A DNA stretch of 64,000 nucleotides from Clostridium manihotivorum (GCF_004015185.1 NZ_CP025746.1:1441776-1505775); one strand, 5' to 3'; counted from the first letter of the stretch, positions 28,153 to 51,661 are shown. The notes: generated from the sequence alone by a model not told the origin. Made by a program: numbers and translations.

Positions 28153-28581
28153 TTTAATCCCCCTTATTTAATGCCTAATTTTCCATATGAATTATTTGTA
28201 AAATTATATCATATATGGATTGAGAACAGGGCTATAAATTAAAATAATTCACAGTTTCTTAATGGTTTTCTACTGAATTATTTGCTTAGTATAAGACTTA
28301 TGAAGAATATAGAATGCCGTGGCATAAGGTATATATTGACTGAGAGAATATCCAGCATTAAAATGATGATATGTTTATTTAGGTAACATTTTTACTGGAG
28401 GTGATAATTATATAAGGTAAGTCTATATAGTTGGTTTAAATAAGAAGGTTAATTACTTAATTTCAACAAGATAATTTAACAGAGGCATACAACAGTTTTA
28501 AAACACCTACTAAAACCCACTAAAATATATTGGAATATTGTTAGTTTTATGTTGTCATAATATGTGTAAAGAGGTGATAGC

Positions 28582-29044
28582 ATGAAGTATTATACAATTG
28601 GTCAATTCTCAAAATTAATGGGAAAAAGTATTCAAACTTTAAGATTGTGGGATAATGAAGGAAAGTTAAAACCACATCATATAACAGAAGGTGGACACCG
28701 TTATTATTCTGAACAACAAATTAATCAAGTTTTGCAAGTGCCACTTGTTAAGAGAACTAAAAAAGTAATTGGATATTGTAGAGTATCAAGTAATAAACAA
28801 AAAGATGATTTAGCAAGACAGGTTGCTGAGATTTGGGTTTGAAATAATAGAAAATCTATGTAATAAGTATGGGACTGACATCGAAATCATAGATAACACT
28901 GAAAAAACAGAAGAACAGGAATTAGTTGAGGATTTAATTCAAATTGTTACAGTTTTTAGTTGTAGGTTGCAAGGCAAAAGAGCCAATAAAGCAAAGAAAA
29001 TGATTAAGGAGCTGTTAGAGAATGATACTGGCGAAGAAAGTTAG
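28582..29044 (+). pseudogene. tnpA: IS607-type tnpA (MerR-HTH + serine recombinase) with internal deletion and frameshift
   Basis: MerR-like HTH MKYYTIGQFSKLMGKSIQTLRLW, catalytic-Ser motif IGYCRVSSNKQKDDLARQ, then a frame break. The RFGFEII...ELVEDLIQ tail resumes in another frame, with ~50 aa of recombinase core missing. Confidence 0.7.
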
Positions 29045-30167
29045 AATTATTCCGAATATAGAGCAAGAACAAAAATTATGGCAGTCTGTTGGTACTGCAA
29101 GATATATTTATAATTGGACACTTGCAAGACAAGAAGAAAATCACAAAAATGGTGGCAAGTTTATAAAAGATGGAGATTTAAGAAAAGAATTAACTATTTT
29201 AAAGAAATCAGAACTTAACTGGCTTAATGAAGTATCTAATAATGTAGCAAAACAGGCTGTAAAAGATGGTTGTAGTGCTTATAAAAATTTCTTTAAAGGG
29301 TTAGCTGATAAACCAAGATTTAAGAGCAGAAGAAAAAGCAAACCTTCATTCTATAATGATACAGATAAACTAAAAGTTAAAGAAAATTTAGTATTAATTG
29401 AAAAAGTAGGTTGGATTAAAACAGTAGAGCAAATACCTACAGATATTAAATATATTAATCCAAGAATAAGTTTTGACGGTAAGTTTTGGTATATATCTAT
29501 AGGCATAGAAAAAGAAGAAACTATATCAGAAAATACAGATATATCAATAGGTGTGGATTTAGGATTAAAAGATTTAGCAATAGTTTCAAATATAGATAAA
29601 CCATTTAAAAATATTAATAAAGCTAAAGAAGTGAAAAGACTAAAAAAGAAGTTAAAAAGAAAGCAGAAACAAGTTTCAAGAAAATATGAAGATGGAAAAA
29701 TTCGAATAGGAAAGGAAGGTGAAAACCGTTATAAATTTACTAAAACTAATAATATTAAAAAACTCGAAAGAGAATTAAAACTTATTCAAAGAAGGCTTTC
29801 AAATATACGTTTAAATCATATTCATCAAACAACAACTGCAATAGTGAAAACCAAGCCAAGCAGAATAGTTGTTGAAGATTTAAATGTAAAGGGTATGCTT
29901 AAAAATAAACACTTATCAAAGGTTATACAAGAACAATGTTTCCATAAGTTTATTAGTATCTTAGAATATAAGAGTAAATTTAATGGCATTGAATTTGTAA
30001 AAGCAGATAGGTTTTATCCTTCAAGCAAAACTTGTTCTTGTTGTGGAGCAATAAAGAAAGATTTAAAACTTAAAGACAGAGTTTTTGTTTGTCCATCATG
30101 TAATGCTCGGATGGATAGGGACAAAAATGCGTCAATAAATCTTTCAAGGTATAAAAAATCAGCATAA
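29022..30167 (+). CDS. tnpB: TnpB (IS605 OrfB-family RNA-guided nuclease, RuvC + zinc finger), apparently intact
   Basis: 381 aa; ...IGVDLGLKDLA... (RuvC-I D), ...VVEDLNVKGM... (RuvC-II E), CSCCG...CPSCN zinc finger, ...MDRDKNASINL (RuvC-III D). Confidence 0.85.
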   Translation: MILAKKVRIIPNIEQEQKLWQSVGTARYIYNWTLARQEENHKNGGKFIKDGDLRKELTILKKSELNWLNEVSNNVAKQAVKDGCSAYKNFFKGLADKPRFKSRRKSKPSFYNDTDKLKVKENLVLIEKVGWIKTVEQIPTDIKYINPRISFDGKFWYISIGIEKEETISENTDISIGVDLGLKDLAIVSNIDKPFKNINKAKEVKRLKKKLKRKQKQVSRKYEDGKIRIGKEGENRYKFTKTNNIKKLERELKLIQRRLSNIRLNHIHQTTTAIVKTKPSRIVVEDLNVKGMLKNKHLSKVIQEQCFHKFISILEYKSKFNGIEFVKADRFYPSSKTCSCCGAIKKDLKLKDRVFVCPSCNARMDRDKNASINLSRYKKSA

Positions 30168-30326
30168 TATCACTAACAAGATAGTGCTGATATGTACTGT
30201 GCGTTACGCAGGATTTTAAGCCTTTGGAGCAACATATCAAACTGGAGTAGTCTTATGACAAAACAGGTTGCGTTGAATAAGGAATAAATCTCTAAACATT
30301 AGATTTTAGTAGATTTTATGTAACGG
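30168..30326 (+). ncRNA. predicted omega (right-end) RNA scaffold of TnpB
   Basis: ~160-nt segment between the tnpB stop and the element end, conserved with only a few substitutions in copy B (51490..51648). Established TnpB biology places the guide scaffold here. Confidence 0.5.
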
Positions 30327-30348
30327 CTAAATTTAAATAAGGATAACT

Positions 30349-30777
30349 ATGATGAAGAACTATTATGAAGACAAACTCTTAGCTTTTAAGATAGAAGGAA
30401 AGTTACATAACAAGATAGTTTTATATGATGATAATTACAAAAAACATATTAAAGTCAGGCATCCAGAAATGAGTATGGAGAACATAGAAGATATCTTAAA
30501 AACACCTGACTATGTATACAAGCCATCCAGAAATAGCACTATTTTTTATTATGAAAAGCTATATGAGAGAGATACATATAGGGTGGTAATAGAAAGCTGT
30601 AAGAAGCATACTAAGGAAGTAGTCACTGCCTATAAGGTTGGTAATGAGGAAGGATATACTGTAAAGCATATATATTGTGTTTATGACAAGGAAACCTTTA
30701 TTGAATATGAAGATATGAATAAAGAATTGGAAGATGACTTTGATTACTTTTATGGCATATTTAATAAAGCTGAATAG
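30349..30777 (+). CDS. hypothetical protein
   Basis: 142-aa ORF immediately downstream of the IS right end. Confidence 0.45.
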   Translation: MMKNYYEDKLLAFKIEGKLHNKIVLYDDNYKKHIKVRHPEMSMENIEDILKTPDYVYKPSRNSTIFYYEKLYERDTYRVVIESCKKHTKEVVTAYKVGNEEGYTVKHIYCVYDKETFIEYEDMNKELEDDFDYFYGIFNKAE

Positions 30778-30782
30778 GAGAG

Positions 30783-30820
30783 GCAAACGTAAATTTGTGA
30801 AAATTTATGTTTGCCTTTTT
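30783..30820 (+). terminator. rho-independent terminator
   Basis: aggcaaacg-taaatttgtgaaaatttat-gtttgcctttttatt. Confidence 0.6.
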
Positions 30821-31412
30821 ATTACTTTATCGAAAAGATATACACCTAGACAAGGTTAGCAATATCAAGGTCGTACAATAGTCTGTTAGGATATACATTA
30901 TAAAAAATTTGTTCGGCTGCCAGGGGGCATTCACACACCTTCAGAAAACTTAATTTTTCTAACAGGAATTGCTTGCTTTGCACCAATTTCTTTTTAAGCA
31001 CCATAGTTATAGTGTGGTGCTAGCTCAGATGCATATTGCTTAGGATTGCATTTTTTGAACAGCATTTATCTTTTCCAAGTGTTCCATTTTATCCCTCAAA
31101 ATACAATATACCAATTATGTAAGTTAGTTTCTTGACCTAAAAAGACAGATATCAATTAATGGTGCTTAAATTCAAATAATTAATTACAATTATATAACTT
31201 TAAATTTCAATATGGTACTTTAACTGAGTCTTAATTTATATAGAAATACAGTTGGTTATTAAAAATATATTGTTATGGAATCGAATAGTAAATTATTAGT
31301 AGTTATTGTTGGTATCTATACTTTAAGATAACATATTGACAAAAAATATAAAAAAATGAAGGAATAAATAAAATTATGTAGAATATTATATTTTGCTAAT
31401 AATTTTCTATTT

Positions 31413-32573
31413 TTGGAGGAACATAAATTGGCTATTATAGACGTTATTAAATTTAATGGCATATTGAACAGAGATTGGTTAGTTTATAGGTATCCTGGCG
31501 AAAGTTTTGTATTTGGAACACAGCTTATTGTAGGGGAAGGTCAGATTGCAGTTTTTGTTAAAGGTGGAAGGGCCTTAGACTATTTCTCAGCAGGTACTTA
31601 CACTCTTAATACTCAAAATATCCCGTTATTGCAATCATTAATTAACATTCCATTTGGTGGAAGAACACCTTTTACAGCAGAAGTATTTTTTATTAATAAA
31701 ACTGCTAAACTTGATATTCTGTGGGGGACTACAGATCCAATTAGTCTAATAGATCCCAAATATGCAGTTAGATTAAGAGTACGTGCCTTTGGTCAATTTG
31801 CAATTAGAATTTCTGATTATCGTGTCTTCTTAACTGAACTAATAGGTGCATTAGGAGATAGTCAAGTCATAAAGTATGACCTTGTAATTAAATATTTCAA
31901 GGGAGTTCTTGTTACAAAGATTAAGACAATTATTGCTGATATAATAATCAATCAGAAAATCTCTGCACTAGAAATAACACCGCATTTGGAAGAGCTTTCT
32001 GAGATAGCGAAGCAACGTCTTTCATCAGAATTTGATCGTTTTGGAATAGAAATTATTAATTTATTCATAACCTCAATTAATTTTCCAGACGAAGATTTTG
32101 ATATGATAAATAAGATACTTGGAGAAAAAGCGGCTTTCGATATTATTGGGGATAGTCGTTACAATGTTAAGAGATCTTTTGATGTTATGGAAACAGCAGC
32201 AGGAAATGAAGGCTCAGGTAATTTGGTTTCAGCTGGAATTGGTGTAGGTCTAGGTGCAGGTGCAGGAATAGCTGTTGGCAACAATTTTATGGCTACTGCT
32301 GAGAATAACATTAATACATCTGGAAAGTCAGTAGCTTGTAGGAAGTGTAATACTCTAAATAGAGAAGGGGATAAGTTTTGCTCCAACTGTGGAGAGAAAC
32401 TTTCTACCGAAAAGATTGAATGTTATTCATGTAAGACATTGATAGATGGAAACATGAAATTCTGTCCTAATTGTGGATGCTCAATGATGAAAAGAATATG
32501 TTCAAACTGTTCAAAAGAAAATCTACCAGGGACAAAGTTCTGTTCAGAATGCGGAACTAAATTGGAGGGATGA
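31413..32573 (+). CDS. SPFH/band-7 domain protein with C-terminal multiple zinc ribbons (YdjI-like)
   Basis: N-terminal SPFH-like region, Gly-rich linker, then repeated CxxC...CxxC ribbons (CRKCN...CSNCG, CYSCK...CPNCG, CSNCS...CSECG). Confidence 0.55.
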   Translation: MEEHKLAIIDVIKFNGILNRDWLVYRYPGESFVFGTQLIVGEGQIAVFVKGGRALDYFSAGTYTLNTQNIPLLQSLINIPFGGRTPFTAEVFFINKTAKLDILWGTTDPISLIDPKYAVRLRVRAFGQFAIRISDYRVFLTELIGALGDSQVIKYDLVIKYFKGVLVTKIKTIIADIIINQKISALEITPHLEELSEIAKQRLSSEFDRFGIEIINLFITSINFPDEDFDMINKILGEKAAFDIIGDSRYNVKRSFDVMETAAGNEGSGNLVSAGIGVGLGAGAGIAVGNNFMATAENNINTSGKSVACRKCNTLNREGDKFCSNCGEKLSTEKIECYSCKTLIDGNMKFCPNCGCSMMKRICSNCSKENLPGTKFCSECGTKLEG

Positions 32574-33316
32574 TCATGAATAATAGTAAAGATTCATCTT
32601 TAACACTATTAAAAGTTATTGGATGCTTAATTTTTGATTTAGGAGCAATATTAGCTTACTATAACCTATTGGGATTATTTGTTTTTGTTTTTCCTATTAA
32701 ATCTATACTAATACTTTCTACATTAATAATAGGTCTTATAATATTAAATATTTCAATTATTATACCTAATTTAGTATTTGATAAAATAGGAATACCATAT
32801 TCTGCAGCGATCGTAACTATAGCTACATTATATTTCTTAGTAGCTAATATAAGTTCAATTCTGTTAGTATCAATAAGTGCAGTTGGATATATATCATGGG
32901 AATTGATTGTCTTTGCGATTTTTGTAGTTATAGTTTCTTCTGTGGCTGCATTCTCAAAGAGATCAGTGATAGATAGAGACATGTTTGAAAAAGAACAAGT
33001 TGAAAAGAGTTTTATATTGCTACAATTACAAGAAATTGAAGCAATGCTTCTTGAGAGAGAAGGACAATCAAAGAATTCTCAATCAATTAAGCTATTTAAA
33101 ATTCTGAAAGAAAGAATCCAAGCCTCAACTCCTTTTGGTAGGATTACTGGAAATGTGTTAGTTTCACAAGCAGAGGATAAAATTAAAAATAATATAACAT
33201 CCTTAAAATTGTGCCTTGAAAGTAATGTATCTGATAAAAGCTTAGATGAGGTGGATACATTAATTGAGGATACAAGAAAGCTTGTAATTAATAGAGAAAA
33301 GTTAAACATTAGATAA
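32570..33316 (+). CDS. integral membrane protein
   Basis: Multiple hydrophobic helices followed by a charged C-terminal domain. Start overlaps the upstream stop. Confidence 0.45.
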   Translation: MIMNNSKDSSLTLLKVIGCLIFDLGAILAYYNLLGLFVFVFPIKSILILSTLIIGLIILNISIIIPNLVFDKIGIPYSAAIVTIATLYFLVANISSILLVSISAVGYISWELIVFAIFVVIVSSVAAFSKRSVIDRDMFEKEQVEKSFILLQLQEIEAMLLEREGQSKNSQSIKLFKILKERIQASTPFGRITGNVLVSQAEDKIKNNITSLKLCLESNVSDKSLDEVDTLIEDTRKLVINREKLNIR

Positions 33317-33357
33317 GTGAAAAAATAATAATTATAAACATAAAATAAGGAGAGATT

Positions 33358-33774
33358 TTGATGAACGAAAAGAAATGTCCATGCTGCGGGGCTTCAATAA
33401 GCTTTAATGCAACTGAATGTAAATACTGCGGGGAAACAATAGCTGTGGAGACTCCACAATACCAACAAGCTCCACAATACCAACAGGCTCCACAATATCA
33501 ACAAGCACCTCAATATCAACAAGCTCCACAATATCAAGCACAACCGCAAAGTACTATTCCTCCTTATTCAAAGAGCAAAACTACTGCTGGAATACTTGCA
33601 ATTCTGCTTGGAGGACTTGGAATACATAAGTTTTATTTAGGTAGGATTGGTATGGGGATTTTATATATAGTTTTCTGCTGGACTTATATACCTGCAATAT
33701 TAGGTATTATAGAAGGTATAATTTACTTAACATCAAGCAATGAAAAGTTTTACTACAAGTATGTAAAGAGATAA
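33358..33774 (+). CDS. zinc-ribbon / PQYQQA-repeat / TM2-domain membrane protein
   Basis: N-terminal CPCCG...CKYCG zinc ribbon, five PQYQQA repeats, and C-terminal TM2-domain pattern GILAILLGGLGIHKFYLGR. Confidence 0.55.
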   Translation: MMNEKKCPCCGASISFNATECKYCGETIAVETPQYQQAPQYQQAPQYQQAPQYQQAPQYQAQPQSTIPPYSKSKTTAGILAILLGGLGIHKFYLGRIGMGILYIVFCWTYIPAILGIIEGIIYLTSSNEKFYYKYVKR

Positions 33775-33905
33775 TAAGAGCTAAGTAACTTCTAAAAGAA
33801 CGTATATATAATGAATAATATATATTGGTTTTGTGTATATAACAAAAATATCTCTTAGTGCTATTAGTACTAAGAGATGTATACATGCTAATATCGATGT
33901 AAATA

Positions 33906-33945
33906 AGGCAGGATAAGTGTAGAGCTTATCCTGTCTTTTATGTTT
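33906..33945 (+). terminator. rho-independent terminator
   Basis: aggcaggataag-tgtagagc-ttatcctgtcttttatgtttt. Confidence 0.6.
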
Positions 33946-34059
33946 TATAATGAGCTTTTTATTAAAAAACACCTTAGCAAATTATTATTAGCGGGACATT
34001 AGCTCCGTCCCCCTGTCCCTACTAATTTGCGATATAATGTAGTTAATAAATAGTGAAAC

Positions 34060-35571
34060 TTGTATACAAAGGATGTGGACAGAAATTTGAACAGAAGATA
34101 TAGAGATATTTTAAGCATAATTTTAAATACAGAGGAAGCTATTACTGGAAGTGAGCTAGCTAAGTTTTGTAAGGTAAGTGTGAGAACTATAAGACAGGAT
34201 ATTAAGGATATTAATATATTGCTTAAAGAATATGAGGTTGAAATTAGTTCTAACGTAAAAAAGGGATATTTTTTTGATGATAAAAGTAAGTCCATTATGA
34301 AGGAAAGCAATATCATAAGAAAGGTATTAGATTATCAATATATAATTGAAACACCAAGTATTCCAATAGATAGACAGATGTACATACTACTAAAACTTAT
34401 AGTTAAAGAAAATATGGAAATAGAAGAAGTTGCAGAGGTACTTTATGTTTCCTCAGCGACTATTAATAATGATATAGCTGCCATTAATAAGTGGCTTAAG
34501 AAAGAACTAAACCTTAGAATAAGTTACTCCTTAAATGAGGGCATTAGTCTTAATGCAGAAGAAGTAGAAAGAAGGAATATAATAAGCTGGGTTTTATCTA
34601 AAAAAACTAATGTAAGTACTATTGCGAAGTATTGGAACTACATATTTGAAGAAAGTGATGTTATAGAAAGGGCAAGACAGCTCTATCATATAGTAAGTAA
34701 TAATGCAAAAAAGCATAACTACTATTTATCCGGACATAGCTATCAACTTCTGTGCTATGAGATATTGGTAGCGATTAAACGCTGTGAGAATGGCTTTAGT
34801 TTGAAGGAAGAAGATATTACAAAGGAATGTCTTGTTTCAGTATTGCCAGTATTAATGGATATAAGGGTAGAGGTAGAAAAGCTCTTAAAGATGAAGCTGT
34901 CAGAGTTAGAATGGCTTAATATACAGTGCTACTTCAAATCAAAGCAATTTCTTAAGCAAACTAGTATTACAAACTTTGAAAATGAAGAAGCTATGGAAAT
35001 AGTGGATGAATTCATACAAGTTTTAAAGCATAAATTCAAGATTGATATAAGCTCTAATAAAGAAACACTATTACTATATGTAAATCCAATGATCAATCGG
35101 TTAAGATACAAACACTGCATAGCAGAGCAGATAAATGATGGGGTTACTAAGACTTATAAAAGACAGTTTGAAATGGCAGGTGAAATAGCTGGCATTATAA
35201 AAAGAAGGCTAAAACTAAATGTGGAGCTTATAGAGTTAGCTTACATAACAGTTCATTTAGTAGCTATCTGTGAAACAGAAGAAAGTAAATTAAAAACAGC
35301 CATAGTATGTGATTATGATGAGGCTATAATAAGCTTGATAAAATATAAGCTAAAGAAGCTTTTTGGAGAAAGAGTGGAGCTTTTAAGAGTTTTCGACTAT
35401 CAAGAATTTATGTTTGAAGAGGAAGAAAACCTTAAGGATATAGAGTTTATAGTTACTACATCAACTATAGCAGATCTTACGGATATTCCTTTTGTTAAGA
35501 TAAATCCAGAGTTTGAGCAGAATGATATCAATATGCTTAGTGAGCACTTTAATAATCATATCAATAAGTAA
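34060..35571 (+). CDS. PRD-domain transcriptional regulator (BglG/MtlR/Mga-like HTH)
   Basis: N-terminal HTH (ITGSELAKFCKVSVRTIRQDI) and ~500-aa architecture typical of PRD regulators. TTG start as listed; the true start is uncertain. Confidence 0.5.
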   Translation: MYTKDVDRNLNRRYRDILSIILNTEEAITGSELAKFCKVSVRTIRQDIKDINILLKEYEVEISSNVKKGYFFDDKSKSIMKESNIIRKVLDYQYIIETPSIPIDRQMYILLKLIVKENMEIEEVAEVLYVSSATINNDIAAINKWLKKELNLRISYSLNEGISLNAEEVERRNIISWVLSKKTNVSTIAKYWNYIFEESDVIERARQLYHIVSNNAKKHNYYLSGHSYQLLCYEILVAIKRCENGFSLKEEDITKECLVSVLPVLMDIRVEVEKLLKMKLSELEWLNIQCYFKSKQFLKQTSITNFENEEAMEIVDEFIQVLKHKFKIDISSNKETLLLYVNPMINRLRYKHCIAEQINDGVTKTYKRQFEMAGEIAGIIKRRLKLNVELIELAYITVHLVAICETEESKLKTAIVCDYDEAIISLIKYKLKKLFGERVELLRVFDYQEFMFEEEENLKDIEFIVTTSTIADLTDIPFVKINPEFEQNDINMLSEHFNNHINK

Positions 35572-36171
35572 GGATGCATTATATAAATATGTACCACTTC
35601 AATCTGATAGCTATTTTCAAGACTCATCTGGTTTCAGAGAGGAGAACTTGAAAATAGATAGATCAATAAAACTACCATTAATAATAAAAATGATTGTGGT
35701 ATTTTTCAAGATTATAGAGCTGGAATATCTATAATTCATATTAAATTTTGGCTATATTTAATTTCAACACAGTGCTTTAACAGAATCTAAAGTTTAGGGC
35801 AATAAGGTACTGTAGGTTAATAAAATAAAGTATTTCACAGTATAGGGTGAAATATTATAGTTTGTACTAATAAGAAGCAATTTATTATAATTAAGTCATA
35901 CAAGCATAAAGCAATTCAATGAGAAATTGAAGATACGAATTCAATTATTGAGCTAAATATCTTTGAAAGATTAAGGCCCTAAATAGAATCGACTTAAATA
36001 TTAATTAAATAGTCTCTCGGAATTATGAGTGATTATTATAGTCCTATCGGGGTAGCGTACATTAAAAAGTGAATATTATCCAAAGATTTACAGAGAATGT
36101 GGAATATTAATAAAAATGAGCATAACTAATAGACATAGCTGCCGCTATGTTTTAAAATAATTATGTATTGA

Positions 36172-37654: not shown

Positions 37655-37843
37655 TAAAAATCTCCTCCAATCGAAAAATATACCTTGTATTTAAGGGGCG
37701 CGTAGCGCCGCATTTTTCGATATTTTTGTCAAGTGCTTTTAACAAAAAAGTGGGGGATTTCAATAAAAAAGGAATCTTTAAGCCAGATAAATCAAGGCTT
37801 AAAGATTCCGAGAGATTATTTAAGCTTTAAGGAGTGATACATT

Positions 37844-43050: not shown

Positions 43051-43095
43051 AAGGAATATAGTTTTCCTTATATGCATGGCTCTCATTTTTATATT
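43051..43095. terminator. bidirectional terminator
   Basis: gccatgcatataagg-aatatagttttc-cttatatgcatggc, a perfect 15-bp stem with T-runs on both sides. Confidence 0.65.
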
Positions 43096-43290
43096 AGGGT
43101 TTTAGTAAGTGTTAAAGATTCTAATCATGTAGTAAGTAATATTTTATAGTTTGGCTATGTTTAATAATATTGTTGAAATTAAGTGGTTGTGAAGGAGAGG
43201 CTATATGAGAAAGCTACTATAATTAAAGCCTCGGATGGCTGACCACTTAATTTCAGCACAGTACTTTACTACTTTAACAGCGCCTATAGT

Positions 43291-44190
43291 CTATGACCCT
43301 ACAAATTGTCCGCCATCTACATGAATTATTTGTCCAGTAGTATAAGTGGAGTCTTCTGAAGCTAGGTATACATAAGTTGGACCGAGCTCCACAGGCTGAC
43401 CGGCTCTTTTCATAGGTGTATCTAAGCCAAAGGAGGTGATTTGCTCCGCTGACCAGCTAGAGGGTTGAAGTGGAGTCCAGAAGGGGCCAGGTGCGACACC
43501 ATTTACTCTTATTCCTTTATCTACAAGTGAAAGAGCTAAGGACCTTGTAAAGCTTGCAATAGCACCTTTTGTACTTGAGTAGTCAATAAGTTCCTTGTTG
43601 CCTGCATAAGCGGTTACAGAAGTAGTATTTATTATTGTACTTCCACTGTTTAGATGAGGCAGTACTGCTTTGGTTAAGTAAAACATGGAGTATATATTTG
43701 TCCTAAAGGTGTCGTCAAGTTGCTGGGCACTTATATCTAATATGCTTTCTTGTGGAAACTGAACTCCAGCATTGTTAACAAGTATGTCTATATGTCCTAA
43801 CTTATCTAGTGTTATATTAACTATATCTTTTGAAAAAGCTTCTTCTCTTAGGTCACCAGGAATTAAGATACATCTTCTTCCCTTAGACTCTATAATTGTT
43901 TTTATCTCATTTGCGTCTTGATGCTCATTAAAATATACTATGGCAATGTCAGCGCCTTCTTTAGCAAAGGCTAGAGCAACAGCTCTTCCTATACCACTAT
44001 CACCGCCGGTTATTATAGCAACCTTATCCTTAAGCTTGCAGCTTCCTACATAATCAGGATTGTCAAATATAGGTCTAGGATGCATAAGGTATTCTAACCC
44101 TGGCTGTACTGGCTGATGTTGTGGTGGAAAAGTTATTGGGACTTGCTTGCACTGAACTTTTTGTCCCATGTACGGATAATAAAGAATCAA
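43291..44190 (-). CDS. SDR-family oxidoreductase (YhdF/general-stress-protein-39-like)
   Basis: TGGDSGIGRA cofactor motif and the YxxxK region (YSSTKGA). Confidence 0.85.
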   Translation of the reverse strand: MILYYPYMGQKVQCKQVPITFPPQHQPVQPGLEYLMHPRPIFDNPDYVGSCKLKDKVAIITGGDSGIGRAVALAFAKEGADIAIVYFNEHQDANEIKTIIESKGRRCILIPGDLREEAFSKDIVNITLDKLGHIDILVNNAGVQFPQESILDISAQQLDDTFRTNIYSMFYLTKAVLPHLNSGSTIINTTSVTAYAGNKELIDYSSTKGAIASFTRSLALSLVDKGIRVNGVAPGPFWTPLQPSSWSAEQITSFGLDTPMKRAGQPVELGPTYVYLASEDSTYTTGQIIHVDGGQFVGS

Positions 44191-44256
44191 GTTTCTACCT
44201 CCAAAAAAAACGTGCTTACAATATCATATGTAAGACACGTCAAAATGGAATAATAT

Positions 44257-47031
44257 TTATGCTTTTTTAATAAGCCTTCTTGATAGATGTATAATCTCAG
44301 AAAATACTATTACTGAGAAAGTATATCCTATTATCTTTAGCCACATAACTATTGATAGAGGAGAGGTCTTAAATAGTTCTCCACCAAATTGAGTTATTAA
44401 TATCTGTAGTACAAAAGTCCCACTCATCATTATCAGCATAGGTTTATTATTAAGCAAGTTAGTAAATATGCTTTCATCTCCTAGTTCTCTTGAGTTAAAG
44501 GAGTTGAACAGTTGGAACATTACAAAGGTGGTAAAGATTATACTAGGTTGCTCACTTACAGTACCACCAAGTACTTTTTTATCTATAAGCAATGCAAGCA
44601 TGAGTACTATATAAAGTCCATTGGTAAGTATGGTTGTAAGCATGTTTTTTGTTATTATGCTAGCATCTCTTTTTACTGGTTCCTTATCCATTAGGTGTTT
44701 TCTTAGGGCCTCAAGACCTAAAGATAATGCTGGAGGACCATCCATTATTAGGTTAACCCATAAAAGTTGTATAGTAGTAAAGGGTAGTGGTAGTTCTAAT
44801 ATTTCGCAGATAATTACTATAAGTACCGCAACTAGATTTACAGTTAACTGAAATTGAATGAACCTTTGGAAGTTTTCGTAGATGCCGCGTCCCCATTCAA
44901 TGGCTTTAACTATGGTTGAGAAGGAATCATCTAAAAGTACTATATCACTAGCTTCTTTGGATACTTCAGTGCCCGTAATTCCCATGGCTATTCCTACGTC
45001 AGCATTTTTTAAAGCTGGAGCATCGTTTATTCCATCGCCTGTAACAGCAACAACCCCTCCAACTTTCTTTATGAGATTTACTATTCTCATTTTTGTGATA
45101 GGTTTACTTCTAGCAATTACCACTATATTATCTAATATTTTAATAAGCTCATCATCTGACATTTCATCAATATCCTGAGCATCGATGATTATGCTGTCTT
45201 CTTTTACTACATCTAACTGCTTAGCAATAGAAGTAGCAGTTACTATATTGTCTCCAGTAAGTATTTTTAAGCTTATTCCTGATTTCTTACATTTCTCAAC
45301 AGCTTCAAACACATCTTCTCTTAAAGGGTCAGCTATGGAAACAAAGCCATCAAAGATCATAGCTTGTTCTATCTTGTTCTGAACAGAAGACCAATCATCA
45401 TGATTATTTAAATATGTTCTATGGGAAAAGGCTAATATTCTTTTAGCTTCTTTTTGTAATTTAGTTATTTCACTGGTTATCTTTTCTCTTAGTTCTTCAG
45501 TTAAAATCTCTACCTTATCGTTTATGATGATTTTATTACATAAAGAAATAATTTTTTCAGGACTTCCTTTGGAGTATATATTATAATTGTTATCTTCTAA
45601 TGTTACCGTAGTCATAGATTTCTTTTCAGAACTAAAAGGATATTGAAAAACTATGCTAGAGGCATTACGTATATCTGTATAACTTATATATTCGCTTTCC
45701 TGCGAACTGTATTTTGAACATTTGCCTTGGCATACAGAGCTGTGAAGCTCATAGTGTGGGCAGCGTTTTGGATTTACAGAGCAAACAGTGTCAGTAAATG
45801 CTTTTAAAAGAGAGCATTCTGTTGGGTTACCTATGAATTTTATTTGTCCATCTTTTATGTTGATATCGGCAGTGCTGTTTACAGTAAAGTTTTCTATCAT
45901 AAATCTGCTTTTAAGTTCAGTTGGTGTCATTAGATTTCCATTATTCCAAACATCTATAACAGACATCTGATTTTTTGTAAGTGTTCCAGTTTTATCAGAA
46001 CAAATAACGTTTATACAGCCTACAGTTTCACAAGCTACTAGTTTCTTTACTAGAGCATTGGTTCTGGCCATCTTAATTATATTTAAAGCTAAGGTCATAG
46101 CTACTATTGTTGGAAGACCTTCAGGTACAGCCGCAACAATAAGTGCTACACTTGTCATAAATGCATTTTGAACTGTATCAAAAGAGATATTGTTATGGAC
46201 ATATATTTTAAAAATCTCATAGAAAAATATTAATGCAGATATCACCACTCCTATTACTGATATAGCCTTAGCTAGTTTATCAAGTTTTTCTTGAAGTGGA
46301 GTAGACTTGGACATGGTCTTTTTTAGCTCTGAGGCTATATTACCCATCTCAGTACTATCTCCAACTGCAGTTACGATTGCAGTAGCTTGTCCATAGTTAA
46401 CAAAGGTACCAGCAAAGATCATATTGCTTCTCTCTGAAAGTGGCACTTTTGAGTTAGAGGAGATTTCATCATAATGCTTACTTACAGCTATGCTTTCACC
46501 TGTTAGCATTGATTCATCAACTTTTAATTGGAGACATTCTATTATTCTAGCATCGGCAGGTATCTTGTCTCCAGTTTCTACTTTTATAATATCTCCGACT
46601 ACTATATCTTTTTTATTTATGTATTGAATAATACCATTTCTTAATACCTTAACTTTTATATCTTCATTGATATTGTTAAGGGCTTCAAAGGCTTTTTCAG
46701 ATCTTCCTTCCATGATAATTTGGATGCTTACAGAAAGGGTTATGGCAACTAATATACCAATACTTTCAGTAAACTCTGCATGTAAGCCTTGAAGGTGTTT
46801 ATAGATATTCATACCTATAGTTATCATAGCTGCTATCATAAGTATAAATATCATCGGCTCTGATAGTGCTTCCAGTATCTTTTTTGAAAGAGATACCTTT
46901 TCAGTAGGTGAAAATTGATTTTTACCGTACTTTTCTTCGCTTTTAATTACTTGGGTGTCAGTAAGTCCCTGATCGCTGTTCAAGTTAAAGTGATCAAGGA
47001 TTTCTTCAACTGGTTCTTGGAAAAACTCCAT
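44257..47031 (-). CDS. P-type cation-transporting ATPase (Ca2+/Mg2+ type IIA-like)
   Basis: DKTGTLT phosphorylation motif, TGES, GDGINDAPAL; 924 aa with about 10 TM segments. Confidence 0.9.
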   Translation of the reverse strand: MEFFQEPVEEILDHFNLNSDQGLTDTQVIKSEEKYGKNQFSPTEKVSLSKKILEALSEPMIFILMIAAMITIGMNIYKHLQGLHAEFTESIGILVAITLSVSIQIIMEGRSEKAFEALNNINEDIKVKVLRNGIIQYINKKDIVVGDIIKVETGDKIPADARIIECLQLKVDESMLTGESIAVSKHYDEISSNSKVPLSERSNMIFAGTFVNYGQATAIVTAVGDSTEMGNIASELKKTMSKSTPLQEKLDKLAKAISVIGVVISALIFFYEIFKIYVHNNISFDTVQNAFMTSVALIVAAVPEGLPTIVAMTLALNIIKMARTNALVKKLVACETVGCINVICSDKTGTLTKNQMSVIDVWNNGNLMTPTELKSRFMIENFTVNSTADINIKDGQIKFIGNPTECSLLKAFTDTVCSVNPKRCPHYELHSSVCQGKCSKYSSQESEYISYTDIRNASSIVFQYPFSSEKKSMTTVTLEDNNYNIYSKGSPEKIISLCNKIIINDKVEILTEELREKITSEITKLQKEAKRILAFSHRTYLNNHDDWSSVQNKIEQAMIFDGFVSIADPLREDVFEAVEKCKKSGISLKILTGDNIVTATSIAKQLDVVKEDSIIIDAQDIDEMSDDELIKILDNIVVIARSKPITKMRIVNLIKKVGGVVAVTGDGINDAPALKNADVGIAMGITGTEVSKEASDIVLLDDSFSTIVKAIEWGRGIYENFQRFIQFQLTVNLVAVLIVIICEILELPLPFTTIQLLWVNLIMDGPPALSLGLEALRKHLMDKEPVKRDASIITKNMLTTILTNGLYIVLMLALLIDKKVLGGTVSEQPSIIFTTFVMFQLFNSFNSRELGDESIFTNLLNNKPMLIMMSGTFVLQILITQFGGELFKTSPLSIVMWLKIIGYTFSVIVFSEIIHLSRRLIKKA

Positions 47032-47589
47032 TTCATCCTCTCCTTAATGACTATTTGTGGTGTTGTATTTATGAAAGCTGGGACTTTAATAAATACAATA
47101 AATTTAGATTGGGCAAACAAAAAATATATGATTAAGCTTATTATTTAAATAGGAAACCTACCACTACCTTAAATAATAGCACTTAACATAGACAAAATAA
47201 AAAAGACTCATAATACAATAATCCATCTAAAAAAGATGGTCTCGTATTAAAAGTCTCACAGTGACAAACGTCATGATAAAGCCAGGTTAAAAGAAACCAT
47301 TATGTTGACTTTATCTCCCTTACGGGTAGTTACTCCCTTTTAAAGATATTAACTTTTAAGAATATAGCTTTACTTTTATAAAATAAATAGCAATAAAGCT
47401 AAGAATTTAGTGATATTTTATAACCACTTCTATTATTATATTTAATTAATTTGTAACTGTCAACGAAATGTAAATCTTTTCGCGCATATTTATGCATAGT
47501 TTTATTTTTTACTATTTACCACAAATAGCTACTGAAAAGCCTTTATATTGCTAGGTTTAGCTAAGAAAAAATAATTTCATAAACAGTAA

Positions 47590-47630
47590 AAAAAAAGCCG
47601 CATTTATAAAAAATATAAATGCGACCTATT
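47590..47630 (-). terminator. rho-independent terminator (minus strand)
   Basis: On the minus strand: gcatttata-ttttt-tataaatgc followed by ggcttttttttt. Confidence 0.55.
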
Positions 47631-47774
47631 AATGCGAATATATACTAAATATCACTAATATTTAAAAAGACCTTTTAAACAAAAATCTTTCCAAATTACT
47701 TCGTAGCAGTGATAAGTAGTTAATCACTAAAACTGTGAAACATATTTCTAAAAAGAAGCAATAAAACGCTCAGA

Positions 47775-48386
47775 TTAAAAAGAACTTGTATGTCCGTGGC
47801 TATGTGAGTTCATGAATGATGCTCCAGTTGATCCTAGATTTGAGCCCATATTTGAACTTCCTTGTTGCTGTCCGCCATATTGTTGTTGCTGTTGTTGCTG
47901 TTGTTGCTGCTGAGTTTGTTGAAGTTGTTGAAGTTGTTGCTGTTGTTGTTGTTCTCCTTGGCTCATTTGATTTAATTGTTGTTGAGTTTGCTCTATTAGC
48001 TGACTCATCTGTGCAAGGGTCTGATTTGATTGTAAGAACTGGCTAGCCTTGCTTAAATCGTTCATAGCACTTGTTATTGAAGATTGTAACTGTTGTTGAG
48101 TTTGCATTTGTTGTTGCTGAGTTTGTTGTTTGAAATCCTTTATTTGTTGTTGTAGATCAGTTATAACTTTATTTCCTTGATTGCTTTGTTGGCTACTTTG
48201 AGACTGACCACCTTGAGATTGTTGTGATCCAGACATTGAGCTTTGTTGTTTTAATTGATTTAAAGTGCTTGACATAGCGCTTAATTGATCTTTTAAGCCT
48301 GTGATTTCAGCACCTATTTCAGCATCATTTTTTTTGCTATCAACATAGTTCTCTATTACTTTTTTACTTTTTTCGTCCATCACCAA
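47775..48386 (-). CDS. glutamine-rich coiled-coil protein (low complexity)
   Basis: Long poly-Q/QQL runs encoded by CAA/CAG/TTG repeats at ~47860-47960. Confidence 0.5.
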   Translation of the reverse strand: MVMDEKSKKVIENYVDSKKNDAEIGAEITGLKDQLSAMSSTLNQLKQQSSMSGSQQSQGGQSQSSQQSNQGNKVITDLQQQIKDFKQQTQQQQMQTQQQLQSSITSAMNDLSKASQFLQSNQTLAQMSQLIEQTQQQLNQMSQGEQQQQQQLQQLQQTQQQQQQQQQQQYGGQQQGSSNMGSNLGSTGASFMNSHSHGHTSSF

Positions 48387-48497
48387 TCACTCCTTTTAAT
48401 TATTTGCTACGAAAATATCTTAACCACTATAAAATACAAATATACTGGTGTTGTTTCTACTAATTAAATGAGTATATTGGTAAATTTAAAAAAATTA

Positions 48498-49223
48498 TTA
48501 AATTTCACATTTGCCGTCAGAACAGCTTCCTGCATCAGTTTCTTCATCATCAGATTTTTTTGAAAGGAACTCTATAACTGGTGAGGAAAGTTCTTCTTTT
48601 CTTACTTTTTCAAGAACATCTAAAAATAACTCAGATGGTTGTGCTCCAGATACAGCATATTTATTATTAAATACAAAGAAAGGTACTCCAGTTATTCTTA
48701 AATTAGAAGTTCTTTCTTCATCTCTTCTAACTTCTGAAGAATATTTATCAGATGAAAGAACTTCTAAAGCTTCTTTATAGTTTAAACCAACTTCTTCTGC
48801 AAGTGTTGCCAATACTTGATGATCAGATATTAAAAGTGAGTCTACGAAGTAGGCTTTTAATATTCTTTCTGATAACTCATTCATTTTTCCTTCAGTGTTT
48901 GCATAGTGACATAATCTATGAGCATCAAAAGTATTAGTTGGTTTTAGAGCTTCAAAATTATAATTTAAACCAAGAGTTTTAGCTTGTTCTATTAATTGAT
49001 TATTTGATCCTTTAGCTTGTTCAACTGATATTCCATATTTTTTAGCTATTAACTGATCAATATTTTCCTCATAGCTTTTCTTTGCAGATGGGTCAAGCTC
49101 GAAGCTTTTAAAAACTAATTCAACCTCATCCTTATATTCAAATTTATCTAATGCATTTTCTAGCCTTCTTTTTCCTATATAACAAAATGGACATGCAAAA
49201 TCAGACCATATTTCTATTTTCAT
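48498..49223 (-). CDS. DsbA-family thiol:disulfide oxidoreductase (FrnE-like)
   Basis: MKIEIWSDFACPFCYIG (CxxC). RBS aggagg before ATG at 49223. The ORF-track N-terminal extension to 49436 is rejected. Confidence 0.75.
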   Translation of the reverse strand: MKIEIWSDFACPFCYIGKRRLENALDKFEYKDEVELVFKSFELDPSAKKSYEENIDQLIAKKYGISVEQAKGSNNQLIEQAKTLGLNYNFEALKPTNTFDAHRLCHYANTEGKMNELSERILKAYFVDSLLISDHQVLATLAEEVGLNYKEALEVLSSDKYSSEVRRDEERTSNLRITGVPFFVFNNKYAVSGAQPSELFLDVLEKVRKEELSSPVIEFLSKKSDDEETDAGSCSDGKCEI

Positions 49224-49904
49224 TTCTATTCCTCCTATTGTCCTCATAGCTACTATTTTAATTTTCTTAAAATTAAGATATACAGGTCTTATAAAAGATG
49301 TATGGATGTTAAAGAGTAAAACTGTACTGTTCGAACGTAGTGAGTTTACAGTTTTAGCCGTGGAATATGAAAAAATCATATTAATTCTTTGTGTAAGCTC
49401 ATCTAAGCATCGGAATACTAACCACTTAATTAACATGGTAGTTTAACAGAGCCGAAATTAAAAGTATACATGAGGTTTATTTATAATTTAATGATATTAT
49501 AGTCCATTAAATTTCAATACTCAATGGTATAAAAAGGAACCCATAGGGGGTATATTATTTTAATAATATTTTTGAAGATAGTCCTTGGAACTAATTAGTG
49601 ACAATATAAATTAATGGTAAATTATAGATAGTTCAATTTGTATATAAAGTTCAAAGGTTCATATGATAAGGTTATTGACGTAAAAAAACAAATTTTATAA
49701 AGTAAGCAAATTTTGTTAGGAGTTGAGATAAATCAATTAGTTTCTTCAAAATAGATATCCATTGATGTATAATTTATAAATAGATATTTAGTTTTAAATT
49801 GGGGAAGGCATACAACAGTTTTAAAACACCTACTAAAACCCACTAAAATATATTGGAATATTGTTAGTTTTATGTTGTCATAATATGTGTAAAGAGGTGA
49901 TAGC

Positions 49905-50367
49905 ATGAAGTATTATACAATTGGTCAATTCTCAAAATTAGTGGGAAAAAGTATTCAAACTTTAAGATTGTTGGATAATGAAGGAAAGTTAAAACCACAT
50001 CATATAACAGAAGGTGGACACCGTTATTATTCTGAACAACAAATTAATCAAGTTTTGCAAGTGCCAATTGTTAAGAGAACTAAAAAAGTAATTGGATATT
50101 GTAGAGTATCAAGTAATAAACAAAAAGATGATTTAGCAAGACAGGTTGCTGAGATTTGGGTTTGAAATAATAGAAAATCTATGTAATAAGTATGGGACTG
50201 ATATCGAAATAATAGATAACACTGAAAAAACAGAAGAACAGGAATTAGTTGAGGATTTAATTCAAATTGTTACAGTTTTTAGTTGTAGGTTGCAAGGCAA
50301 AAGAGCCAATAAAGCAAAGAAAATGATTAAGGAGCTGTTAGAGAATGATACTGGCGAAGAAAGTTAG
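49905..50367 (+). pseudogene. tnpA: IS607-type tnpA remnant (same internal deletion as copy A)
   Basis: Same two-ORF structure as 28582..29044. Confidence 0.7.
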
Positions 50368-51489
50368 AATTATTCCGAATATAGAGCAAGAACAAAAATT
50401 ATGGCAGTCTGTTGGTACTGCAAGATATATTTATAATTGGACGCTTGCAAGACAAGAAGAAAATCACAAAAATGGTGGCAAGTTTATAAAAGATGAAGAT
50501 TTAAGAAAAGAATTAACTATTTTAAAGAAATCAGAACTTAACTGGCTTAATGAAGTATCTAATAATGTAGCAAAACAGGCTGTAAAAGATGGTTGTAATG
50601 CTTATAAAAATTTCTTTAAAGGGTTAGCTGATAAACCAAGATTTAAGAGCAGAAGAAAAAGCAAACCTTCATTCTATAATGATACAGATAAACTAAAAGT
50701 TAAAGAAAATTTAGTATTAATTGAAAAAGTAGGTTGGATTAAAACAGTAGAGCAAATACCTACAGATATTAAATATATTAATCCAAGAATAAGTTTTGAC
50801 GGTAAGTTTTGGTATATATCTATAGGCATAGAAAAAGAAGAAACTATATCAGAAATACAGATATATCAATAGGTGTGGATTTGGGATTAAAAGATTTAGC
50901 AATAGTTTCAAATATAGATAAACCATTTAAAAATATTAACAAAGCTAAAGAAGTGAAAAGACTAAAAAAGAAGTTAAAAAGAAAGCAGAAACAAGTTTCA
51001 AGAAAATATGAAGATGGAAAAATTCGAATAGGAAAGGAAGGTGAAAACCGTTATAAATTTACTAAAACTAATAATATTAAAAAACTCGAAAGAGAATTAA
51101 AACTTATTCAAAGAAGGCTTTCAAATATACGTTTAAATCATATTCATCAAATAACAACTGCAATAGTGAAAACCAAGCCAAGCAGAATAGTTGTTGAAGA
51201 TTTAAATGTAAAGGGGATGCTTAAAAATAAACACTTATCAAAGGCTATACAAGAACAATGTTTCCATAAGTTTATTAGTATCTTAGAATATAAAAGTAAA
51301 TTTAATGGCATTGAATTTGTAAAAGCAGATAGGTTTTATCCTTCAAGCAAAACTTGTTCTTGTTGTGGCGCAATAAAGAAAGATTTAAAACTTAAAGACA
51401 GAGTTTTTGTTTGTCCATCATGTAATGCTCAGATGGATAGGGACAAAAATGCTTCAATAAATCTTTCAAGGTATAAAAAATTAGCATAA
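50345..51489 (+). pseudogene. tnpB: tnpB with single-base frameshift
   Basis: Two overlapping ORFs that together equal the 381-aa TnpB of copy A. Confidence 0.75.
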
Positions 51490-51661
51490 TATCACTAACA
51501 AGATAGTGCTGATATGTACTGTGCGTTACGCAGGATTTTAAGCCTTTGGAGCAACATATCAAACTGGAGTAGTCTTATGACAAAACAGGTTGCGTTGAAT
51601 AAGGAATAAATCTCTAAATATTAGATTTTAGTAGATTTTATGTAACGGAATAATTTAATAT

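What the first reader, a model, noticed from the sequence alone, without database searches (positions are those of the whole stretch)
28483..51648. Two direct-orientation IS607-family copies bracket ~19.5 kb; both carry the same internally deleted tnpA
Elements 28483..30326 and 49806..51648 are collinear and near-identical. In both, tnpA is a remnant that retains the MerR-HTH and the catalytic-serine motif (IGYCRVSSNKQ) but loses ~50 aa of recombinase core with a frame change. Copy A has an intact 381-aa TnpB. Copy B has a 1-bp deletion in an A4 run that splits tnpB. A non-autonomous element present twice implies mobilisation in trans or TnpB-assisted retention/homing. The two direct repeats also make the intervening 19.5 kb prone to deletion, inversion or circle formation. 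That interval holds an SPFH/TM2 membrane module, a PRD regulator, an IS1182 remnant, sugar enzymes, a P-type ATPase and a DsbA-like gene.
Basis: seen in the sequence. Interest (0 to 1): 0.6.

Follow-up and report, generated by a model that had tools for sequence, protein, structure and literature searches.

The report
Two crippled IS607 copies with TnpB
Two copies of a small jumping gene in Clostridium manihotivorum share one deletion that killed their own transposase but kept an RNA-guided nuclease, and intact sister copies in the same genome probably moved them; this is an ordinary, already described way of life for this transposon family.

Summary
Window 28484-30326 and 49807-51648 are two direct IS607-family copies, 98.9% identical (19 substitutions, 1 indel), with unrelated flanks. 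Both lack the same 161 nt of tnpA (TnpA residues ~82-135, with a frameshift). The deletion lies between A(A/G)GTTG microhomologies. Copy A keeps an intact 381-aa TnpB (D179/E286/D367) and a RAGATH-18 guide-RNA scaffold. In copy B, tnpB is split by an A4-to-A3 change. The window is Clostridium manihotivorum. That genome also encodes at least four intact 207-aa TnpA proteins that are 97-100% identical in the retained segments, so a trans-acting transposase exists. The same deletion junction occurs in two independent assemblies, one with a third, different flank, so the deleted derivative has moved repeatedly. A ~91%-identical syntenic relative shows the precise empty site of copy B (…GGGGAA-GG-AATAATTT…), with no target duplication. 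TnpB is under purifying selection (pN/pS ~0.13), while the tnpA remnant is decaying. The 19.5-kb interval is ancestral chromosome, not transposon cargo. Direct repeats allow deletion or circle formation, not inversion. This is a new member of a known kind: a non-autonomous IS607 with TnpB and reRNA. Side lead: this subfamily inserts at Shine-Dalgarno-like GGAGG sites just upstream of co-oriented start codons.

The parts
28484..30326 (+). Copy A of the IS607-family element (1843 nt including both GG core dinucleotides, 28484-28485 and 30325-30326)
   Evidence: 98.9% identical to copy B, with unrelated flanks. LE GG|CATACAACAG and RE TGTAAC|GG are shared with relatives.
28484..28581 (+). Left end (non-coding) with direct subterminal repeats CTACTAAAA/CCACTAAAA (28507-28525). 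These are presumed TnpA-binding sites.
   Evidence: motif scan; the inverted copy TTTTAGTAG lies in the right end at 30304-30312. Binding is inferred from what is known of IS607 ends, not tested.
28582..28842 (+). tnpA remnant, 5' part: 86-aa ORF. Residues 1-81 are homologous to TnpA (MerR HTH plus catalytic-Ser motif IGYCRVSSNKQ), followed by an out-of-frame tail.
   Evidence: PF00376 MerR; Resolvase positions 1-23; NF033518 positions 2-77.
28814..28825 (+). Junction of the 161-nt deletion (28819|28820), with AGGTTG microhomology at 28820-28825
   Evidence: alignment with L001; with L002. The same junction is in copy B, L084 and L085.
28823..29044 (+). tnpA remnant, 3' part: 73-aa ORF in another frame, homologous to TnpA residues ~134-207
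   Evidence: (NF033518 positions 131-186).
29022..30167 (+). tnpB copy A: intact 381-aa RNA-guided endonuclease (RuvC D179, E286, D367; CxxC at 338 and 357). Identical to QAA31349.1. Has its own AAGGAG ribosome-binding site 9 nt upstream.
   Evidence: NF040570, 297 bits; 8IAZ, E 7.6e-74.
30168..30326 (+). reRNA (omega RNA) scaffold region of copy A. The RAGATH-18 motif lies at 30221-30284.
   Evidence: RF03064, 68.6 bits against a gathering score of 44.9. The same position is seen in 17 of 19 related loci.
30327..30346 (+). Predicted guide/target of copy A (CTAAATTTAAATAAGGATAA). The donor-joint TAM would be AGAGG. The start codon of the downstream gene is at 30349.
   Evidence: Inference from the published reRNA architecture (PMC11061315) and the element boundary.
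49807..51648 (+). Copy B of the element (1842 nt including both GG). Precise insertion relative to the empty site in L082.
49905..50367 (+). tnpA remnant of copy B: 86-aa ORF (49905-50165) and 73-aa ORF (50146-50367), with the same 161-nt deletion at 50142|50143. Carries derived W23L and L55I changes.
50345..51489 (+). tnpB of copy B, split by a 1-nt deletion (A3 run at 50853-50855) into 175-aa and 226-aa ORFs
   Evidence: A homopolymer sequencing error cannot be excluded.
51490..51668 (+). reRNA scaffold of copy B (RAGATH-18 at 51543-51606) plus predicted guide 51649-51668 (AATAATTTAATATATGGGGA). The donor-joint TAM would be GAAGG. The downstream start codon is at 51662.
30327..49806 (.). 19,480-nt interval between the copies: ordinary chromosomal genes. 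The part from 38.7 kb onwards is syntenic with relatives that lack the IS.

Best explanation
Both loci are copies of one non-autonomous derivative of an IS607-family insertion sequence. It is ISCbo6-like, and its TnpB belongs to the RAGATH-18/reRNA class.

A single 161-nt microhomology-mediated deletion removed the core of the serine-recombinase domain (residues ~82-135, including the DR of the DRLLR motif) and shifted the frame. TnpA is therefore dead. Both ends, tnpB and the guide-RNA scaffold stayed intact.

The deleted element was then moved at least twice by TnpA supplied in trans from intact sister copies in the same Clostridium manihotivorum chromosome. Movement would follow the normal IS607 route: excision as a dsDNA circle, then integration at a GG core without target duplication. 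The targets here are purine-rich, Shine-Dalgarno-like sites 13 and 22 nt upstream of co-oriented start codons.

TnpB from copy A, loaded with reRNAs whose guides are the right-flank sequences, would cut the scarless donor joint left after any excision and restore the element by recombinational repair. Copy B has since lost its own tnpB reading frame, but it could still be served in trans because its scaffold differs at one base.

Shown here: the anatomy, the shared deletion, the precise insertion, intact TnpA genes in the genome, additional insertion sites, and selection on tnpB. Inferred: trans-mobilisation, reRNA expression, and TnpB cleavage and homing.
For: - Shared deletion: identical junction in A and B, and in two independent assemblies, L084 (ENA ERZ27254857) and L085 (Logan SRR29828349).
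- Third site: L084 has a third, different left flank, TTAATTGGA[GG].
- Flanks of A and B are unrelated.
- Empty site of copy B in the syntenic relative L082 reads GGGGAA-GG-AATAATTT, with no IS and no duplication. C. zeae L083 is also empty.
- Source genome identified by exact protein matches: QAA31349.1, QAA31365.1 and the DUF5700 protein.
- The same genome has intact 207-aa TnpA proteins QAA31535.1, QAA31593.1, QAA33666.1 and QAA34405.1. They differ from the remnants at 0-2 residues per retained segment.
- TnpB: NF040570 at 297 bits; homologous to the solved ISFba1 TnpB 8IAZ (E 7.6e-74), with D/E/D and the zinc finger intact.
- RAGATH-18: 68.6 bits in both copies and present in 17 of 19 relatives.
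- Inferred TAMs AGAGG, GAAGG and GGAGG fit the published AGGAG/GAGGG TAMs (PMC11061315).
- Selection: tnpB pN/pS is 0.12-0.15 across the family, including loci with deleted tnpA. In the tnpA 5' remnant, 6 of 7 changes are non-synonymous or nonsense.
- The mechanism (GG core, scarless excision, TnpB homing) was shown experimentally for IS607 in bioRxiv 10.1101/2023.11.20.567912.
Against: - No direct evidence that these two copies are still mobile, that the reRNA is made, or that this TnpB cuts.
- DNA of the intact sister copies could not be fetched, so identity of their ends to those of A and B is inferred from protein identity only.
- The empty site for copy A was not found.
- The copies differ by 1%, so the transposition events are not recent.
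- Shared polymorphisms among A, B, L084 and L085 are mosaic, so some gene conversion between copies has occurred.
- The deletion junction was absent from the JGI metagenome, viral and 80 genome loci searched, so the lineage is narrow.
Confidence: 0.85

Rival explanations
1. The deletion was not inherited through transposition. Two originally intact copies acquired it separately, either by recurrent slippage at the same A(A/G)GTTG microhomology or by gene conversion from one copy to the other.
For: The deletion is bounded by a 5-6-nt direct repeat present in undeleted relatives, which is a possible slippage hotspot. Mosaic sharing of variants among A, B, L084 and L085 shows that copies exchange sequence.
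Against: The junction is identical in four sequences. Every other tnpA lesion in about 15 related loci has different endpoints. Undeleted relatives with the same microhomology are common (L001, L002, L005, L009). The nearest A/B differences lie 75 nt and 60 nt from the junction, and differences are spread evenly (longest identical run 254 nt), so there is no sign of a recent conversion tract.
Confidence: 0.08
2. A + interval + B is a composite transposon, or a recently acquired island: the two IS copies brought in the 19.5 kb, or now move it as a unit.
For: The direct IS607 copies have intact outer ends (LE of A, RE of B), so TnpA could in principle circularise the whole 23 kb. The interval holds accessory-type genes and an IS1182 remnant.
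Against: Gene order from window 38.7 kb through the copy B site to 60 kb is conserved at about 91% nt identity in L082, with DsbA and the oxidoreductase adjacent and no IS. C. zeae L083 keeps the same adjacency. Each copy sits at its own SD-like site upstream of a gene, as solitary relatives do. The copies differ by 1%.
Confidence: 0.04
3. The retained N-terminal fragment (MerR HTH plus Ser motif, 86 aa) is a functional product. It could be an end-binding repressor or a dominant-negative regulator of transposition, which would explain why many relatives keep exactly this part.
For: Many independent tnpA deletions in relatives retain residues 1-49 to 1-82. HTH-only ORFs of 63-82 aa are annotated as MerR regulators, and one of 76 aa is seen on 30 contigs.
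Against: Within this deletion lineage, 6 of 7 changes in the fragment are non-synonymous or nonsense. These include W23L in the HTH of copy B and two stop codons in L084. Other relatives keep only the C-terminal end (L038, L045, L067). Retention can be explained by cis-acting left-end sequences.
Confidence: 0.05

Closest known systems
IS607-family TnpB elements guided by RAGATH-18-derived reRNA (ISFba1 TnpB, PDB 8IAZ; Cell Res 2024, PMC11061315)
   Same: A ~380-aa TnpB aligns end to end with 8IAZ (E 7.6e-74) with an intact RuvC D/E/D and zinc finger. A RAGATH-18 motif lies in the non-coding stretch between tnpB and the right end. The TAM inferred from the flanks is G-rich and purine-rich. K77 and N112 align with the ISFba1 residues that read TAM -1G and -4G.
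   Different: Spacing differs: 53 nt from the stop codon to RAGATH-18 and 42 nt from the motif to the end, against 13 and 64 nt reported for ISFba1. Two TAM-contacting positions differ (N74 for K, D113 for N). The inferred TAM ends in GG (GGAGG-like) rather than AGGAG. No activity was tested here.
IS607-family elements and IStrons of Clostridium botulinum and C. senegalense (ISCbo6; bioRxiv 10.1101/2023.11.20.567912)
   Same: Serine-recombinase TnpA with an N-terminal MerR HTH; tnpB overlapping the tnpA 3' end; GG core dinucleotide at both junctions; no inverted repeats; no target duplication. Genomes carry several copies, including some without tnpA. Best plasmid hit is ISCbo6 on NC_015417.1, about 75% nt identity.
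   Different: No group I intron (Rfam finds only RAGATH-18; the left end is 98 nt). The target motif is SD-like RRRGG in intergenic 5' leaders rather than TGGG inside genes. At about 75% nt identity it would count as a different IS.
Non-autonomous tnpB-only IS200/IS605 elements and PATEs mobilised in trans (Meers et al., PMC10055086)
   Same: Conserved ends and a guide RNA module, no working transposase of their own, an intact transposase elsewhere in the genome, and multiple insertion sites.
   Different: The transposase here is a serine recombinase, not a Y1 HUH enzyme. The tnpA gene is still recognisable as an internally deleted pseudogene, so the origin of the non-autonomous lineage can be dated to one event.

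Membership tests
IS607 family insertion sequence | Serine-recombinase TnpA with an N-terminal MerR-type HTH and the catalytic Ser near residue 68 | tested here: met
   The two fragments match NF033518 at positions 2-77 (74.9 bits) and 131-186 (71.7 bits). They are 90% identical to intact 207-aa TnpA. The gene is a pseudogene: 161 nt are missing.
IS607 family insertion sequence | No terminal inverted repeats, no target-site duplication, identical GG core dinucleotide at both junctions | tested here: met
   No inverted repeats were found. The ends are GG|CATAC… and …GTAAC|GG. The L082 empty site equals left flank + one GG + right flank.
IS607 family insertion sequence | tnpB downstream of tnpA and overlapping it, on the same strand | tested here: met
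   The tnpB start at 29022 lies 23 nt before the tnpA stop at 29044.
IS607 family insertion sequence | Transposition through a circular dsDNA intermediate catalysed by TnpA | not testable with these tools
   Needs excision or circle-junction PCR, or long reads.
RAGATH-18/reRNA-guided IS607 TnpB | TnpB with an intact RuvC triad and zinc finger | tested here: met
   Copy A has D179, E286, D367, and CxxC at 338 and 357, aligned to 8IAZ. Copy B is frameshifted.
RAGATH-18/reRNA-guided IS607 TnpB | RAGATH-18 RNA motif between tnpB and the right end | tested here: met
   RF03064 scores 68.6 bits (gathering score 44.9) at 30221-30284 and 51543-51606.
RAGATH-18/reRNA-guided IS607 TnpB | G-rich 5' TAM (AGGAG or GAGGG) next to the guide-matching target | tested here: inconclusive
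   Reconstructed donor joints give AGAGG (A), GAAGG (B), GGAGG (L084, L006, L009, L010) and GAGGG (L005). These are consistent, but they are inferred from insertion sites, not from cleavage.
RAGATH-18/reRNA-guided IS607 TnpB | reRNA-guided dsDNA cleavage | not testable with these tools
   Biochemical or interference assay required.
Non-autonomous (trans-mobilised) IS derivative | Own transposase inactive while both ends are intact | tested here: met
   The 161-nt frameshifting deletion removes the catalytic core. LE and RE are identical between the copies apart from one base, and they match relatives.
Non-autonomous (trans-mobilised) IS derivative | A cognate intact transposase encoded elsewhere in the same genome | tested here: met
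   Four 207-aa TnpA proteins of C. manihotivorum are 97-100% identical in the retained segments. That their element ends are cognate was not tested.
Non-autonomous (trans-mobilised) IS derivative | The same defective derivative at several independent insertion sites | tested here: met
   Sites A, B and L084 have three different left flanks and the same junction.
Composite transposon | The bracketed segment is absent from, or located elsewhere in, relatives and moves with the flanking IS copies | tested here: not met
   L082 and L083 keep the interval's right half contiguous with the DNA beyond copy B, without any IS. The left half was not testable.

The most novel reading that the evidence does not exclude
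This IS607/TnpB subfamily uses the ribosome-binding site itself (GGAGG-like, ending in the GG crossover core) as both integration site and TAM. It inserts co-oriented a few nucleotides upstream of start codons, so every reRNA guide matches a host translation-initiation region.

Defective-tnpA derivatives such as the one here then persist and spread as TnpB/reRNA-maintained passengers of a few autonomous copies. If general, it would mean systematic interference with host gene expression at insertion. It would also provide a ready pool of guides aimed at 5' ends of genes, a plausible stepping stone to RNA-guided regulators.
Probability: 0.4. Interest if true: 0.5.

Novelty: new member of a known kind. 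Interest (0 to 1): 0.25.

Why it matters
This is a clean, datable example of how a TnpB-carrying IS607 becomes non-autonomous. One microhomology deletion kills the transposase. The derivative still reaches new sites while its RNA-guided nuclease stays under selection and the transposase remnant decays.

That supports the published model but adds no new principle. For genome annotation, it identifies the two 86-aa "MerR-like" ORFs as transposase debris. It also flags 1.84-kb direct repeats that could delete 21 kb by homologous recombination.

The side observation could matter more. If the subfamily truly inserts at Shine-Dalgarno sites, that would explain the G-rich TAMs of RAGATH-18 TnpBs in biological terms and predict polar effects on host genes.

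Tried and rejected
- Exact-protein look-ups for window proteins and for the intact C. manihotivorum TnpA returned nothing. That genome is not in the contig index, so sister copies and their ends could not be read.
- The deletion junction was searched in metagenome contigs twice (exact, then degenerate) and in viral contigs: 0 hits. It was also absent from the 80 genome loci. It was found only through the exact 73-aa ORF look-up.
- Empty site of copy A: the nearest DUF5700 homologue with DNA (P0242, 75% identical) lies in a different context. Not resolved.
- The promoter/terminator scan of the element gave no more sites than shuffles.
- The MFE fold of the reRNA region is not better than shuffles (z = -0.88). 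Support for the RNA rests on the Rfam covariance model and its conservation in relatives.
- No further IS607 TnpA, TnpB or RAGATH-18 copy is in the window.
- Group I intron (IStron) was considered and rejected: no Rfam hit, and the left end is only 98 nt.
- The composite transposon, functional HTH fragment and independent-deletion readings were rejected or down-weighted, as set out under the rival explanations.


Full report
**1. The observation**

The repeat search and a global alignment confirm two collinear direct repeats: 28483/4-30326 (1844 nt) and 49806/7-51648 (1843 nt). They differ by 19 substitutions and one 1-nt indel (98.9% identity). Identity falls to background immediately outside both ends, so the flanks are unrelated.

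- An 86-aa ORF with a MerR HTH and the motif IGYCRVSSNKQ.
- An overlapping 73-aa ORF in another frame.
- In copy A, a 381-aa tnpB.
- In copy B, an A4 run (29530-29533) that is A3 (50853-50855), which splits tnpB into 175-aa and 226-aa ORFs.

**2. The tnpA lesion is a real deletion**

The two fragments match the NCBIfam IS607 transposase model at positions 2-77 and 131-186 of 187. Homologues in the protein database are almost all 207 aa, and about 54 residues are missing here.

DNA alignment with an intact relative (L001, about 97% identical) shows exactly 161 nt absent from both copies at the same position (28819|28820 and 50142|50143). In the relative the missing stretch is bounded by AAGTTG…AGGTTG. 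Because 161 is not a multiple of three, the frame shifts. The lost residues (~82-135) include the DR of the conserved DRLLR motif. The protein would therefore be inactive whatever the frame.

**3. Source genome and a trans-acting transposase**

Exact protein matches identify the window as Clostridium manihotivorum, a 6,364,326-nt chromosome:
- TnpB of copy A is QAA31349.1.
- The downstream oxidoreductase is QAA31365.1.
- The DUF5700 protein is 100% identical.

Cluster membership shows that the same genome encodes four full-length 207-aa IS607 TnpA proteins: QAA31535.1, QAA31593.1, QAA33666.1 and QAA34405.1. It also encodes a 183-aa truncated form and an 82-aa in-frame-deleted form annotated as a MerR regulator. 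In the segments retained by the window's remnants, the intact proteins differ at 0-2 residues. A cognate transposase is therefore available in trans.

I could not read the DNA of those copies, because the genome is not in the contig index. That their ends match those of A and B is inferred from protein identity.

**4. The deleted derivative has moved repeatedly**

The exact 73-aa ORF is also carried by an ENA metagenome contig (L084) and a Logan contig (L085). Both are collinear with copy A across the junction (99.0% and 99.5% identity) and have the same 161-nt deletion.

L084 has a third, different left flank, …TTAATTGGA[GG]. One deletion event was therefore followed by at least three integrations. 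The junction was not found in the JGI metagenome or viral collections, or in 80 related genome loci, so the lineage is narrow.

**5. Precise insertion**

A JGI metagenome contig (L082) is about 91% identical and syntenic with window 38723-60038. It lacks copy B. Its sequence at the site is TTTTAAATTGGGGAA-GG-AATAATTTATATATG, which equals left flank + one GG + right flank. C. zeae (L083) is also empty at this site.

This is the IS607 signature: a GG crossover core, no duplication and no inverted repeats. It was demonstrated experimentally for a Clostridium IS607 in bioRxiv 10.1101/2023.11.20.567912.

No empty site for copy A could be found.

**6. The TnpB and guide-RNA module**

TnpB of copy A scores 297 bits on the guided_TnpB model. 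It aligns over its whole length with the solved ISFba1 IS607 TnpB (8IAZ, E 7.6e-74). D179, E286, D367 and both CxxC pairs are present.

Rfam finds RAGATH-18 at 30221-30284 and 51543-51606 (68.6 bits against a threshold of 44.9). The same motif follows tnpB in 17 of 19 related loci.

RAGATH-18-derived reRNAs guide IS607 TnpBs to targets next to 5'-AGGAG or 5'-GAGGG TAMs (PMC11061315). The donor joints reconstructed here would present AGAGG (A), GAAGG (B) and GGAGG (L084) next to the right-flank guide. The element's own right end presents AACGG, which would spare the occupied allele.

A simple MFE fold is not better than shuffles, so the RNA call rests on the covariance model and its conservation.

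**7. Selection**

Across the family, tnpB has pN/pS of 0.12-0.15. That includes loci whose tnpA is deleted (L004, L006, L010) or frameshifted (L002).

In the 5' tnpA remnant of the deleted lineage, 6 of 7 changes are non-synonymous or nonsense: M13V, W23L, G-to-R, L55I, and two stop codons in L084. The remnant is a decaying pseudogene, which argues against a retained regulatory HTH peptide in this lineage.

With outgroups, copy B carries about 11 derived changes and copy A about 6.

**8. Relatives**

Of 80 related loci, many have independent tnpA lesions with different endpoints and an intact tnpB:
- L002 (Clostridium sp. C8-1-8) is 98.9% identical and has two frameshifts.
- L004, L006, L008, L010, L026, L031, L033, L038, L045, L064 and L078 have deletions.

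tnpA decay with tnpB retention is thus the rule in this clade. This agrees with the published view that most tnpB elements are non-autonomous and moved in trans (PMC10055086). The closest named element is ISCbo6-like on C. botulinum plasmid NC_015417.1, at about 75% nt identity.

**9. The bracketed interval**

The DsbA-oxidoreductase adjacency and the gene order on both sides of copy B are conserved in relatives without the IS. The interval is therefore ancestral chromosome, not cargo.

The copies are co-oriented because each lies upstream of a + strand gene. They share identical tracts of up to 254 nt, so RecA-dependent deletion of 21.3 kb, or TnpA-mediated circularisation from the LE of A to the RE of B, is possible. 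Neither has been observed. Inversion is not expected.

With roughly ten family members in 6.4 Mb, two falling within 21 kb is unremarkable (inference).

**10. Side observation: Shine-Dalgarno-like targets**

In 18 of 20 related elements with a recognisable right end, the terminal GG lies 1-22 nt (mostly 5-11) upstream of a start codon that opens a long co-oriented ORF. A loose background for random GG sites is 25%.

Reconstructed joints read as canonical Shine-Dalgarno + spacer + ATG, for example GAGGA[GG]TCATAACATG and GGGA[GG]GTGAATATG. No paper in the library connects IS607 with Shine-Dalgarno sites.

**11. Verdict**

This is a new member of a known kind: a non-autonomous IS607 derivative that carries a TnpB/reRNA module and is served by intact sister copies.

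Noticed in passing
window 28476-28485 / 30325-30351 and 49799-49808 / 51647-51664; loci L002-L012, L020, L035, L038, L044, L046, L060, L084: This IS607 subfamily inserts at Shine-Dalgarno-like purine motifs (GGAGG/GAGGG, with the last GG as the crossover core), co-oriented with a start codon mostly 5-11 nt downstream. This holds for 18 of 20 elements, against about 25% for random GG sites. Insertion separates the host gene from most of its ribosome-binding site. No paper in the library mentions this.
   Followed up: partly
L008 (Clostridium liquoris) and protein P0377: A different tnpA deletion leaves a 76-aa HTH-only ORF annotated as 'HTH-type transcriptional repressor YcgE'. That exact protein is recorded on 30 contigs, which suggests a highly amplified non-autonomous derivative. 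L008 also lacks the RAGATH-18 scaffold (no Rfam hit; the match ends at query position 3170).
   Followed up: no
L002 3400-4020 (Clostridium sp. C8-1-8): The closest undeleted relative (98.9% nt identity) has a +1 insertion near TnpA residue 51 and a -1 deletion near residue 190. The whole catalytic domain is therefore out of frame, while tnpB is intact.
   Followed up: partly
protein P0021 (Logan, 1849-nt contig) and P0384 (QAA33994.1, C. manihotivorum): Two further in-frame tnpA deletions. P0021 lacks residues ~59-107, including the catalytic serine. P0384 joins residue 67 to residue 193, giving an 82-aa 'MerR regulator'. The second is another decayed copy in the same genome as the window.
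   Followed up: no
window 39836-40773: A 938-nt segment carrying a 270-aa ORF (39860-40672, minus strand, no Pfam or NCBIfam hit) is absent from the syntenic relative L082. It is an indel unrelated to the IS copies.
   Followed up: no
window 30349-30777: The gene immediately downstream of copy A, whose 5' leader is the predicted reRNA guide, encodes a 142-aa protein with weak similarity to PBECR3/PBECR2 (phage barnase/EndoU/colicin/RelE-like nuclease domains; E 8.5e-07, just below the Pfam cut-off).
   Followed up: no
window 47861-48151: A GTTGTTGCT-type 9-nt periodic repeat lies inside the 203-aa minus-strand ORF (47775-48386), giving a low-complexity Q/N-rich coiled-coil-like protein with only weak SMC/OmpH-like hits.
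   Followed up: no
window 36172-37654: The 'IS1182 remnant' is supported only weakly. One 158-aa ORF matches NF033551 positions 356-451 at 25 bits (cut-off 270). Neighbouring ORFs have no hits.
   Followed up: partly
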